Shown one piece after another: positions 32,800 to 63,365 of a stretch of 64,000 nucleotides of DNA. This stretch comes from Octopus vulgaris. Lineage: Eukaryota. How positions within the stretch are numbered: position 1 is the first letter of the stretch; each line of letters opens with the position of its first letter. The translations under genes and the position numbers were made by a program. The notes beneath the pieces were generated by a model that saw nothing but the letters and a program-made list of their open reading frames with translations, was not told the DNA's origin and searched no databases. The stretch covers positions 12,090,001-12,154,000 of the forward strand of contig OX597832.1 of assembly GCA_951406725.2 (NCBI GenBank), read 5' to 3'.

Positions 32800-33000
32800 G
32801 TGTGACCGCGTGTGTATCGCTGGTAATTTTCTTTCTCCGTCTTCCCTTCGTTGGACCTTTCTTTTTTCTGTTTCTGACGAAGTGCCCCGATCGAAACGTT
32901 AAATCCTTCTTTCTTTCCTTTACTCAGCATCCAATAACACTATACTTCTTCCAAGTCCTCGCGTTTTTGTGTTTTCTCTTTCTACATGTCTGGATTAACT
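32800..33000 (+). mobile_element. Penelope-type non-autonomous element with a minimal hammerhead motif (32870-32904, stem II mutated)
   Basis: gttt-CTGACGA-a-gtgccccgatc-GAAAC-GTT-aaat; the whole element is co-linear with the reverse complement of 63154-63365; lies between (TG)n and (TA)n. Confidence 0.7.
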
Positions 33001-34340
33001 ATATATATATATATATATATATATATATATATATATATATATATATATATATATATATAGAGAGAGAGAGAGAGAGAGAGAGAGAGAAAGCAAGATAGGG
33101 AGAGAAAGATAGAGAGAGAATGCGGATATAAGCAGTGAAAATATGCGTGCATGTGTGTGTGTGTGTGCAAGCACCCACGTAAGCACATACATTCATATGT
33201 ATAAATATATATATATATATATATATATATATATACATACATATATATGCATATATGTCTTGGTCTGTCTTAACGCATCTTTCCCCACCAAACAACATAT
33301 GAACAAGAGAAACATGAAGAAATACAAAATTATAAATCTTGCACTTCCTCTTTAACTATTAGCCAACTTTCAGAATCTGCTGAAGAAATTTTTACACATT
33401 CAAAAACTAAGTTAAATAAGAATTCCAGTATCGTCGGTAGGAAAAAAAATTGTGTTAATGATAGTTTCAGAGAGAAATAAAATACAGATGTGTAGACAAT
33501 AACATTCACACCTTTGGTGTTTTGTTCCTGCGTTTATTATCATCTATGTAGCATTTCTTCATTTGGTTATATCCTGGGCTGTTGCGTTATCTTTATTTTC
33601 TGTTTTGTTTTTGGCTTGCTATATGTGTAATACACAAAGAAGCGCAATCTTAAACGCACAAGCGCATATATATATATGCGTGTACAGATACATACTGACG
33701 CATCGAGACGAAGCAATGCGCACGTATGCACGTGTGCGTACACGTGTAGGCATGCGTTCCAAACCCCACCCACATACGTACATATTTCTGTGTATGTCTT
33801 ATAGAAATAAGCATATATTTGTGTGTATACACACATATATGCATACATACATATTTATATACATATATACATATGCATATATGTGTATATACATACATGC
33901 ATACATACATAGATACATAGATATATACATATGTGTATATATATATATAAATATATATATATATATATATATATATATATATATATATATAGATATATAC
34001 GTAGATGCACACACACGCAACCACATACATACACACACGTACACATAAACATATACACAGGTACACACGCCTACACTGATACATATATATATATATATAT
34101 ATATATATATATATATATATTCATATATAAACAACATATCTTGTGTATAGTGTCTTGGGGTAAATGCGTATACATGTATACTCTAATACTCACACATACT
34201 TTTAAAAAAACACACTCACACAAACATACTCATAGACAAAACACATGAATGTATCTATGCGTTTATGTATCCCCTGGTAACCATCGGAATACAGGCGCAC
34301 TCAAGACATGCTATTCTTAATATCTGTTGCGTTTTCAATG

Positions 34341-34620
34341 CGGGGATCTGGCAGAAACGTCAGCACGCCGGTTGAAATGCTTTGCGTTATTTCGTTTGTC
34401 TTTATGTTCTGAGTTCAAATTCCGCAAGGTTATGCCCATCTCTTTCGGGGATCATGAAACTAAGTACAGTTAATGGGATCAATAATGACTTAATCCGTAT
34501 GTATGTATGTTTGTATGTATGTTGTTTAGCCCCTATGTGGGTATGAAAGAATATATATTTCGTCTGTCTTTACATTCTATATATATACATTCACATCCAT
34601 ATGACTTTGCCTTTATATAC
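34341..34620 (+). mobile_element. SINE family B, second head-to-tail dimer with corrupted sequence
   Basis: ctggcagaaacgtcagcacgccgg...gttctgagttcaaattccgc...gtttagcccctatgtgggt..aaagaata, then tatttcgtctgtctttac again. Confidence 0.7.
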
Positions 34621-34817
34621 AAATATATGCATATAATAAATATAAGCAATATATATATATCAATATATTATAAAATTTAGGGTATGTGCTTAGATAGATA
34701 AGAATATCTATTCTGTCTTCGTTAATACTTTACTTACTTTCTACAAAGCTTCACACAACCTGCTTTCACTCAGGAAATTTTCTATTGAATCATTAAAAGT
34801 TATGCATAATTAAAAAT

Positions 34818-35210
34818 GTGGAGGCACATGGCCTAGTGTTTAGAGCAGCGGGACCTCAGATTCTATATCCTTAGGATTGAGCACGCCAATGACATGGAGG
34901 TATGCCGTGGAACGACTAAATACAAAGGCTATATGACTTTTGTAATGATCTGTAGTATAGTTCCACTGCATTGCACATTATGCAAGTGTCTTGCGCTTTA
35001 TGCTCAGGATGACGGAAGCTTTTTGAGTGAATTAAGGAGACAGAAACTGAAAGAATCCCGTCGTCTGTGTGTAAAAACATGCGTGCGTGTGTGTGTGTGC
35101 GTGTGTGTGTGCGTGTGTGTATGTGTGTGTCTGCCATCAGTAATGACATTCAATGTTGGCGTGCTTGTTTCCCCGTAATTTAGCAGTTCGGACAAAGATG
35201 CTGATAGAAT
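34818..35210 (+). mobile_element. SINE C head followed by a diverged SINE A
   Basis: tgtggaggcacatggcctagtg; gcaagtgtctt...cagaaactgaaagaatcccgtcg-(TG)n-tccccgtaatttagcagttcgg. Confidence 0.65.
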
Positions 35211-61435: not shown

Positions 61436-61600
61436 GATGGATATAGGAGAAGAGGAGGAAGATGAAAGAGAATGGGAAGGAGAGGAAGAAGAAGAAATAG
61501 GAGTAGAGAAAAAAGAATTGGGAGAAGAGGACGAAGATGAAGAAGAAGACGTAGAAGAAGAAGAAGGAGAAGAAGAAGAAGGAAAAACGAGGAAGAATAA
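61436..61600. repeat. Purine-rich (GAA/GAG) low-complexity tract
   Basis: Seen directly. Confidence 0.8.
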
Positions 61601-62812
61601 GTACACAGGTGCAGTATGACACTAGGGGGTTGTTGAAGTTCTCTTAAGTGGCCAAGTGACGTAAAAGTCACCATTTGTGTTTACAGTAGATATTGATTTT
61701 GATATTTGCGTGGGTATTATTCTAAGGCCCCTTTTAGTAGTTTCATCTCTGGTCTCAAAACGGGTTTATATTTTGCCATAAAATATGAGTCTCTGCTCAT
61801 ACGCTGATAATAGGTTGCATCGTCCTTGAATTTATAGAGGGAACAATTCTGAAGTTGGGTTGTTCGTTAGTGGTGCAAACGTCGATGCATTCAGTAAGCG
61901 CTATTTTTCTGTATTCCCGAATTTTAACCTGAAATCTAATTTAGTGTCATAACTACTTGTCGAGCCATCACAAATTAAAATAAAGACTGAAAAAAACGAA
62001 AATGTCCCATGTATTTGAAAACCATGGAAAGATTTTAAAGAAACATTTCATTTCATTTTTCCACAATTCATTTTTTTTTTTTTGCAGTTGAAAAAATCGC
62101 AGGCTGAACCTGGTACTAAAATTTCTTCATTATAAAAATTATTTTAGCATCTTCTTCTTTGTCCTATTTTCCTTATACATGTCATCTCGTGTGTTTCTTT
62201 TGAACCTTCTACACACACACACACACACACACATGCAGAGGCACACACACATACACACACATATGTATAGCTCTATTCAATACTACCAGTCAAAAGACTT
62301 TACTTAAATTACTCATTCATTTCACTCCCGTATGATTTTTTTTCTTTTTCCCTTCTTTTATTCCTGATTTCTCTCTACATTTATACTCTCCACTACTACT
62401 GTGCTCTCTACACATTTTGATTGAATCTTCCACGGGTTAAATCGTATCTCCTTGCGACAATGTAAAACTTTCATTTAATCAAGCTATCCCTGGTCTGACC
62501 AGTAGCCTGAAGTACACACCTCGCTTGGATATTTACCATTTCCCTGGTTCAGCTTACTACGAAAGACATGTAGCCCTGATTTTATCTATTCTATCTCATA
62601 ACTCTTGTATTATTCGCATATCCGGCAACTCTGATCTCCTACGGCGAAATATGAAAAGAACTTTTTTCAGTTTATCATGCTACGATACGAAAACATCCAA
62701 AACTTCCCGTTTCATTTTACCACTATTCTCCTTAAAAGATTTTTTTTTTAATATTTACTACGGATTGCTTGAAGCTAACTTTTTCTTACAACTCGTTCTT
62801 TGAATCTTACAA

Positions 62813-63152
62813 TATATATATATATATATATATATATATATATATATATATATATATATATATGTATATATATATGTATATATGTATATATATATGTATA
62901 TATGTATGTATATATGTATATATGTATATATATATGTATATATGTATATATATATGTATATATATATGTATATATGTATATATATATGTATATATGTATA
63001 TATGTATATATATGTATATATATATATATATATGTATATATATATGTATATATATATGTATATATATATATATGTATATATATATATATATATATGTATA
63101 TATATATGTATATATATATATGTATATATTTATATATATATATATATATACA
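62813..63152. repeat. (TA)n/(TATG) microsatellite
   Basis: Seen directly. Confidence 0.95.
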
Positions 63153-63153
63153 T

Positions 63154-63365
63154 AGTTAATCTAAACATGAAAACACAAAGAGAAAACACAACAACGCGAG
63201 GACGTGGAGCAAGTATAGTATGAGTGGACGCTCAGGAAAGAAGGAAAGAAGTAGGGGTCAACGTTTCGAGCGGAGCTCTTCGTCAGAAACATATGAAAAG
63301 GAAAGATCCAAAGAAGAGAAGACGGAGGATAAAAAATCGCCAACGGTGCATACGCGGTCACACAC
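63154..63365 (-). mobile_element. Penelope-type non-autonomous element with a minimal hammerhead motif (63257-63290)
   Basis: Minus strand reads gttt-CTGACGA-a-gagc-tcc-gctc-GAAAC-GTT-gacc; homologous to 32800-33000; lies between (TA)n and (CA)n. Confidence 0.75.

What the first reader, a model, noticed from the sequence alone, without database searches (positions are those of the whole stretch)
32800..63365. A family of about 200-bp hammerhead-bearing elements that sit at microsatellite junctions
Seen: 32800-33000(+) and 63154-63365(-) are homologous along their length, and 57592-57776(+) is a more distant relative. All share CTGAnGA-A-stem II-GAAAC-GT(T/A) with a loopless palindromic ACGT stem III. 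All three end abruptly at a (TA)n tract (ggattaac|tata, agattaac|tatg, tttgagc|tata), and the two close homologues start at (TG)n. Known: this extra-A, ACGT-stem-III form is typical of Penelope pseudo-LTR hammerheads, and some Penelope clades target microsatellites. Inference: a high-copy, non-autonomous, ribozyme-processed, microsatellite-targeting retroelement system, with three copies in 64 kb.
Basis: partly seen in the sequence, partly recalled or inferred. Interest (0 to 1): 0.7.

Follow-up and report, generated by a model that had tools for sequence, protein, structure and literature searches.

The report
Solo ends of Neptune Penelope retroelement
These 200-base repeats are the hammerhead-bearing end piece of a Penelope-type jumping gene found whole elsewhere in the same genome, pasted alone into TA repeats thousands of times, likely because the copying enzyme starts near the front of the element's RNA and runs off it; this is a known kind of element, not a separate ribozyme-cut parasite.

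Summary
Real, but a known kind. Copies A (32801-33000+) and B (63154-63362-) are 78% identical. C belongs to a sister family and lacks the claimed core (CTGTCGA, GAGAC). The unit is the terminal repeat (pLTR) of a Neptune-type Penelope-like element: walking upstream found RT, CX4CxxC linker and GIY-YIG, and two pLTR-ORF-pLTR copies. At least 9,975 copies exist. TA targeting holds (52 of 58 ends, background 5.5%); (TG)n is not a target (1 of 31). 'Non-autonomous' and 'ribozyme-processed' are not supported: solos interleave with ORF-linked copies on a tree, and few copies start at the cut site (32, against 50, 87 and 593 at other sites). Most interesting: 5' ends pile up at one point about 80 nt before the ribozyme (31 of 34 copies reaching it stop), whereas 10 of 10 ORF-linked copies pass it, and 24 of 50 junction copies show a switch from about that point back into the leader. 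Likely internal RT start with run-off at the RNA 5' end; no read ends were available to test it. The scan noted octopus Penelope ends and run-off copies before, on other DNA.

The parts
32801..32999 (+). Copy A: solo terminal repeat (pLTR R unit, about +9 to +208) of the Neptune-type element, older subfamily A1
32874..32900 (+). Minimal type I hammerhead motif of A; core intact, stem II 2 of 4 pairs, likely dead; predicted cut after 32900
   Evidence: direct reading
32731..32800 (.). (TA)n then (TG)n upstream of A; TA is likely the left half of the target, TG likely slippage of the unit's own first TGTG
   Evidence: origin inferred
33000..33059 (.). (TA)30 at the fixed 3' end of A (target tract; the element's own sequence here also begins T(A/T)TATATAC)
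63155..63362 (-). Copy B: solo terminal repeat of the same family
63260..63286 (-). Minimal hammerhead motif of B; core and 4-bp stem II intact, stem I 3 of 4 with an internal mismatch
   Evidence: direct reading
62812..63154 (.). TA-rich tract at the 3' end of B
57592..57775 (+). Copy C: 5'-truncated terminal repeat of a sister Penelope-like family; linker-endonuclease or RT pieces lie upstream on the same strand in 3 of 25 fetched loci
57656..57683 (+). Degenerate hammerhead of C (family A6U, private A14G)
57776..57980 (.). (TA)n at the 3' end of C

Best explanation
The units are solo copies of the terminal repeat of an endonuclease-bearing, Neptune-type Penelope-like retrotransposon present in the same genome, inserted into (TA)n tracts, likely made when the element's reverse transcriptase starts about 200 nt inside the RNA and runs off its 5' end. 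Shown: the unit is continuous with the element's 3' UTR and ORF and flanks the ORF on both sides; it has a fixed 3' end, TA on its flanks and a sharp 5' limit; solos are interleaved with ORF-linked copies on a tree. Inferred: the GIY-YIG nuclease nicks (TA)n; the nick primes on the element's own short U/A run right after the unit; the 5' limit is the RNA 5' end (a transcription start); template switches from about that point into the leader or ORF give partial tandems. The solos lack the sequence downstream of the priming site and are likely dead ends. The hammerhead is kept by selection in the source elements and decays in old solos; it does not define the unit's ends.
For: Partner: copies extend upstream through a CA-rich UTR into a GIY-YIG C-terminus. 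In 7 of 10 long loci BLAST finds the unit: about 1.0-1.8 kb downstream of the ORF end in six, and on the opposite strand in L106. L136 and L146 are pLTR-ORF-pLTR; L101 is a partial tandem. Homologues of 740+ aa with RVT_1 + PF26215, many with GIY-YIG, up to 61% identical. TA: 52 of 58 copies reaching the 3' end have (TA)>=3 within about 16 nt, against 5.5% background; 16 of 26 internally truncated copies have TA directly upstream, where the element has none; L246 splits the TA tract of another repeat whose joined flanks occur in 41 other stored sequences. 5' limit: of 60 copies picked only by an internal 28-mer, 31 start at -2..+13, 26 at +16..+130 and 3 further upstream. Matched 19-mers genome-wide: 593 at the limit, 87 at about +24, 50 at about +78, 32 at the cut site. 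Nine of 25 ORF-5' loci (two of them duplicates) join an ORF piece with a variable break to the same +1 point. 24 of 50 junction copies are leader-to-second-unit joins, none followed by element body. Tree of 140 units: the solo label needs 33 changes, at least 8 forced by well-supported branches. Hammerhead span 23 of 27 identical between families A and C, flanks 40 of 93 and 56 of 110; core mismatch 1.1% against 5.6% elsewhere in subfamily A2. Internal initiation is shown in vitro for another PLE (PMC11167929).
Against: No read ends were available, so the RNA 5' end is not shown (contigs only, RNA status a guess). The initiator-like TCATT is present in only 5 of 10 long copies (TCTTT or similar in the rest). 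TA microhomology in the unit's first bases inflates the 593 count. All 10 ORF-linked long copies that reach +13 pass the limit, which one linear template does not explain. Solos are more clustered on the tree than shuffled labels (33 against 45.5 changes; one weak all-solo group of 9), so some secondary spread from solos is not excluded; my sampling by subfamily-specific queries also causes clustering. Some second units start upstream of +1 (-10 to -47) or inside the unit at microhomologies. Pfam hits on my fragments were below the curated cut-offs. No intact ORF turned up in the loci read, and none was searched for systematically.
Confidence: 0.8

Rival explanations
1. The 200-bp unit is an independent non-autonomous element (SINE-like or retrozyme monomer), transcribed from its own internal promoter and spread in trans by the Neptune protein.
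For: Fixed ends and a large excess over the element body (9,975 unit 28-mers against 50 exact unit-leader junctions). Penelope's promoter lies in the pLTR (PMC2377424). Mild clustering of solos on the tree.
Against: Solos, 5'-extended copies and ORF-adjacent copies share every subfamily, rung by rung in A2. In the in vitro PLE system the RNA needs sequence downstream of the priming site (PMC11167929), which solos lack. No head-to-tail unit shows in the printed flanks of the 60 copies; the one same-strand pair 225 bp apart is split by a TA tract.
Confidence: 0.1
2. The 5' pile-up is not an RNA end but ordinary 5' truncation of copies primed at the downstream repeat, focused by an RT pause or by annealing of the unit's AATAT/AAAAT to the TA target.
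For: Boundaries spread over -2..+13 and often merge with TA. 5' truncation is typical of PLEs (PMC8557442).
Against: Only 3 of 34 copies pass the point, while truncation inside the unit is gradual. Several solos and all nine ORF-piece joins begin at ATTCAA/TTCAA-like bases upstream of the TA-like bases. 10 of 10 long copies pass without a break. The point lies about 80 nt from the hammerhead fold.
Confidence: 0.2
3. The unit's ends are made by hammerhead self-cleavage, with a cleaved or circular unit as template.
For: The core is conserved across source lineages. One of 24 joins (L313) falls exactly at the predicted cut site with no overlap.
Against: The cut site is mid-unit (about +110). Copies starting there (32) are fewer than at two control sites (50, 87). 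Cleavage was not needed for insertion in vitro (PMC11167929).
Confidence: 0.04

Closest known systems
Neptune-clade EN+ Penelope-like elements (described in Craig et al. 2021, PMC8557442; passages and supplement search rows seen)
   Same: RT then C-terminal GIY-YIG, CX2-5CxxC linker, CCHH motif, pLTR partial tandems, inverted copies, tail, (TA)n bias. By eye the RT blocks are closest to the Neptune1_Ap rows of the supplementary alignment.
   Different: Tail of about 106-132 nt instead of 30-40 bp; 1-2 kb CA-rich 3' UTR; solos outnumber junction copies about 200 to 1. That supplement lists Naiad and Hydra families from octopus; the rows I saw named no octopus Neptune family (Repbase and Dfam could not be checked).
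[quoted passage not shown]
   Same: Extra nucleotide between 9 and 10.1, G10.1-C11.1, palindromic 15.2-16.2, short helix I, mostly single motifs attributed to truncated PLEs.
   Different: Helix II is 4 bp (7-8 in the Schistosoma families). The most abundant subfamily has U4C, a natural variant with reduced activity in vitro (PMC3088659, passages). The sister family has A6U, a term not found in that paper's main text.
Poseidon from Anolis (PAc), internal RT initiation (Frangieh et al. 2024, PMC11167929; parts 1-2 of 4 read)
   Same: Two internal RT start sites downstream of the hammerhead, AT-rich target, hammerhead cleavage not needed for insertion.
   Different: Different clade and an in vitro system; the parts read describe no genomic 5' limit and no template switching.
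Animal non-LTR retrozymes (bioRxiv 10.64898/2026.07.22.740005, part 1 of 5 and passages, supplements closed; PMC7229834, listing only)
   Same: Non-coding, type I hammerhead, PLE-derived, monomers dispersed.
   Different: Defined by tandem arrays with a hammerhead in each unit; here the unit is the autonomous element's own terminus and is not arrayed.

Membership tests
EN+ PLE, Neptune clade | RT followed by C-terminal GIY-YIG in one ORF | tested here: met
   Broken copies cover aa 166-901 of homologue P0001 in order; RVT_1 E 6e-5 and GIY-YIG E 5e-4, both below curated cut-offs; homologues
EN+ PLE, Neptune clade | CX2-5CxxC linker upstream of GIY-YIG, long linker | tested here: met
   CSRSHCNTC in L076, same motif in other copies
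EN+ PLE, Neptune clade | CCHH motif with two cysteines between GIY and YIG | tested here: met
   LIYCIRCNLCGKLYVG with two later histidines
EN+ PLE, Neptune clade | pLTRs as direct repeats or partial tandems | tested here: met
   L136, L146; L101; 50 exact unit-leader junctions
EN+ PLE, Neptune clade | Optional tail and inverted adjacent copy | tested here: met
   10 of 50 junction copies end 106-132 nt past the junction at TA-rich sequence, 5 of them with an inverted unit upstream
EN+ PLE, Neptune clade | (TA)n insertion bias | tested here: met
   52 of 58 and 16 of 26 against 5.5%
EN+ PLE, Neptune clade | RT phylogeny inside Neptune | tested here: inconclusive
   No tree with named references; by-eye likeness to Neptune1_Ap rows only
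EN+ PLE, Hydra clade | CxCX5C linker and no CCHH motif | tested here: not met
   CX4CxxC and CCHH present
Minimal PLE hammerhead | Core, extra base after 9, G10.1-C11.1, palindromic 15.2-16.2, 4-5 bp helix I | tested here: met
   Family majority lines; whole motif intact (U4C allowed) in 8 of 26 A1 and 16 of 23 A2 copies; 6,820 exact 33-mers. The three window copies are each damaged.
Minimal PLE hammerhead | Self-cleavage as a dimer or with protein | not testable with these tools
   Needs an assay
Non-LTR retrozyme | Head-to-tail arrays with a hammerhead in each unit | tested here: not met
   None in the printed flanks of 60 copies; the pair at 225 bp is TA-separated
Non-LTR retrozyme | Lineage independent of the autonomous element | tested here: not met
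   Solo label needs 33 changes on a 140-row tree, at least 8 forced; bootstrap had not settled
Non-LTR retrozyme | Circular unit-length RNA | not testable with these tools
   Only contigs were served

The most novel reading that the evidence does not exclude
The genome records two template pools of one Penelope-like element. Linear transcripts give strong-stop-like solos (31 of 34 stop at +1) and, by template switching, short partial tandems. A second pool with no 5' end at +1, such as hammerhead-made circles or tandem read-through RNA, gives the long copies (10 of 10 pass +1). This would explain how pLTRs are regenerated and why source elements keep the ribozyme although solos never use its cut site. 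The leader-to-unit switch products with two hammerheads 400-700 nt apart would be ready-made seeds of retrozymes.
Probability: 0.35. Interest if true: 0.6.

Novelty: new member of a known kind. Interest (0 to 1): 0.3.

Why it matters
As a repeat family it is ordinary: solo hammerhead-bearing Penelope ends and TA bias are described. Its use is as a natural experiment. Schostak et al. [quoted passage not shown] Thousands of copies here give a precise, testable RNA start, two priming sites and template-switch joints. Because the 5' limit lies about 80 nt away from the hammerhead, it also argues against a stall at the ribozyme fold as the cause of such limits. For annotation, these units should be filed as Neptune termini, not as SINEs or retrozymes.

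Tried and rejected
Rfam scan of the window: dominated by microsatellite-miRNA matches; no hammerhead among the 150 of 486 rows shown. Single-strand folding gave no signal over shuffles. The GIY-YIG-like frame next to L012 lies on the opposite strand, separated by a TA run, and was read as another family, so it was rejected as the partner. No PLE ORF piece in the window itself. Sequencing runs: no RNA holder listed on record. Searches used a stretch that turned out to be the RT region on the reverse strand, not the junction. laid the junction, but contigs show no ends, strand or level, so neither call counts for or against. Splicing as the cause of the fixed +1 joins was rejected: left breaks vary, no GT donors were seen by eye, and most copies have no AG before +1. 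(TG)n targeting was rejected (1 of 31). No claim of a cap-derived G: the base before +1 is C, G or A and partly templated. The first regex classification of junction copies mis-sorted several and was replaced by alignment. Core conservation within the older subfamily A1 is no better than the rest (5.3% against 5.6%). [quoted passage not shown] Literature searches listed no paper on this family or on a 5' run-off limit in PLEs; the library lacks most subscription journals, Repbase and Dfam, and bioRxiv supplements were closed.
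Full report
Observation. A (32805-33000+) and B (63358-63154-) align at 78% over their length, E 1e-40. Both hold CTGACGA-A-stem II-GAAAC-GTT and end at GATTAAC before (TA)n. C ends at (TA)n too, but reads CTGTCGA and GAGAC and matches B only weakly (nhmmer E 0.0065). A search with C returned its own family (3,901 candidates, 40 scored), whose majority core is CTGTCGA (19 of 25). 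By direct reading each window copy is damaged: A in stem II, B in stem I, C in the core. The window lies in a 2.8-Gb assembly of 227 contigs. I take the host to be octopus-like from genome size, microsatellite load and the scan's earlier notes; this was not tested.

Copy number. The top 40 scored matches to A were all near full length, 86-91% identical apart from A itself. Exact internal 28-mers occur 1,615 times (subfamily A1) and 8,360 times (A2), with controls at 0; the 33-mer hammerhead occurs 6,820 times. Forty 10-kb stretches gave 4 family hits, about 28,000 copies with a wide range.

The partner. Two of the first 30 loci extended upstream. Walking that extension led through 1-2 kb of CA-rich sequence to the end of a GIY-YIG domain, then to the linker and RT. 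Fragments hit RVT_1 and GIY-YIG below Pfam's cut-offs, but 152 proteins of 740 aa or more matched at E<=1e-20, the best at 61% identity, with RT + PF26215 and often GIY-YIG. The linker CSRSHCNTC and the CxxC between the GIY and YIG equivalents fit Neptune and exclude Hydra as Craig et al. define them (PMC8557442). By eye the RT is closest to Neptune1_Ap in their supplement; no tree with named references was built. L136 and L146 carry the unit on both sides of the ORF, and L101 is a partial tandem. The unit is therefore the element's pLTR. All ORF copies read were broken. Family C also has linker-endonuclease or RT pieces upstream on its strand in 3 of 25 loci.

Targeting. Of 60 copies chosen only by an internal 28-mer (the first 30 of each pattern, all on contig 1), 58 reach the fixed 3' end by alignment and 52 of these have (TA)>=3 within about 16 nt, against 5.5% at random. 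The element's own sequence after the unit begins T(A/T)TATATAC, so the 3' tract alone could be seeded by the element. But 16 of 26 internally truncated copies also have TA directly upstream, where the element has none, and L246 splits the TA tract of another repeat whose flanks are contiguous in 41 other stored sequences. TA is a real target. (TG)n runs into the unit in 1 of 31 full-length solos; it is likely slippage of the unit's first TGTG.

The 5' limit. Boundaries fall at -2..+13 in 31 of 60 copies, at +16..+130 in 26, and further upstream in 3. Matched 19-mers (TA run plus element) number 593 at the limit, 87 at about +24, 50 at about +78 and 32 at the predicted cut site; microhomology favours the first. 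The cut site is thus not a preferred end. Nine of 25 loci found with an ORF-5' query (two are duplicates) join an ORF piece with a variable break to +1, often with extra bases. All 50 exact unit-leader junctions were fetched. In 24 the leader runs mostly 190-310 nt and then joins a second unit, starting between -14 and +22 in 15 of 24, and none has element body after it. Ten end 106-132 nt past the junction at TA-rich sequence, five of them with an inverted unit upstream: the PLE tail and inverted arm. Thirteen continue into the ORF; 3 of these are cut inside the unit and 10 pass +1 into upstream UTR, none stopping there (Fisher p 1e-7 against the solos).

Mechanism. Shown: continuity with the ORF, fixed ends, TA flanks, the limit, the joins. 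Inferred: nicking at (TA)n, priming on the U/A run after the unit, internal initiation as shown in vitro for Anolis Poseidon (PMC11167929), run-off at the RNA 5' end, and occasional template switches. Penelope transcription starts inside the pLTR (PMC2377424), which fits, but the initiator-like TCATT is present in only 5 of 10 long copies and no read ends could be had. That long copies pass +1 needs a second kind of template or a reliable second transfer; circles made by the hammerhead, proposed in PMC4209133, are one candidate, with a single join at the cut site (L313) as the only direct hint.

Ribozyme. The motif matches the minimal PLE hammerhead. Between families A and C the span is 23 of 27 identical, the flanks 40 of 93 and 56 of 110; stem I is G-U or G-C in A and C-G in C, and stem II keeps its pairs under a different loop. 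Core mismatch is 1.1% against 5.6% elsewhere in A2, but 5.3% against 5.6% in the older A1: selection in source elements, decay in solos. A2 has U4C, known as a slow natural variant (PMC3088659). Cleavage is untested.

Independent lineage? On a tree of 140 distinct near-complete units, taken from 214 profile hits (shorter and identical ones left out), the solo label needs 33 changes, at least 8 forced by well-supported branches, with solos, extended and ORF-adjacent copies mixed in every subfamily. The label is still more clustered than shuffles (45.5), the bootstrap had not settled, and a few joined copies were mislabelled as solo or extended. No arrays were seen. A separate retrozyme or SINE is unlikely but not wholly excluded.

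Earlier notes of the scan. None matched this sequence. Several describe octopus Penelope ends in TA repeats, and several describe run-off copies in other genomes. My run-off idea was noted, before I saw them; they are AI notes and not support. What differs here is that the limit lies about 80 nt before the hammerhead rather than at its edge, and the contrast between solo and long copies.

Verdict. A real, high-copy feature; a new member of a known kind; interest 0.3.

Noticed in passing
window 56846-57090 (+), hammerhead 56960-57002: A fourth TA-bounded repeat of an unrelated family with a canonical-looking type I hammerhead (4-bp stem I, 5-bp stem II, 2-bp stem III); pieces occur in several other stored loci.
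   Followed up: partly
family C, L150-L174: A6U is the majority state in this sister family's core (19 of 25, query-biased), with stems I and II intact; a possible natural core variant.
   Followed up: partly
subfamily A2, L245-L274: The most abundant subfamily carries U4C with an otherwise near-invariant core.
   Followed up: partly
L290, L294, L299, L277 and others among L275-L324: Leader-to-unit joins place two units, in the copies whose upstream unit is long enough two hammerheads, about 400-700 nt apart; landing sites cluster at about 228 and 242 nt past the junction. Possible retrozyme seeds.
   Followed up: partly
L216/L217 (G000:C1:3973697-3973962): Tail-to-tail inverted pair with shared private changes, joined by a TA tract.
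   Followed up: no
L012, about 250-1330 of the oriented locus: A second, different Penelope-like family (GIY-YIG-like frame, ACCGGT palindrome near its end) on the opposite strand next to a family-A copy.
   Followed up: no
L069:4171-5721 of the oriented locus: An open 517-aa RT-linker-GIY-YIG frame of another Penelope-like family inside a 967-bp perfect inverted repeat, likely young.
   Followed up: no
window 20057-20677 (-): A 206-aa frame that looks like the C-terminal end of an RTE-type LINE with C2H2 fingers (label recalled, not tested).
   Followed up: no
window 9387-9759: Two 184-bp tandem copies of an abundant SINE-like repeat (label recalled).
   Followed up: no
L127:695-760 (RT region): Contigs of two runs share a 64-nt skip with three letters between; probably a deleted genomic copy.
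   Followed up: no
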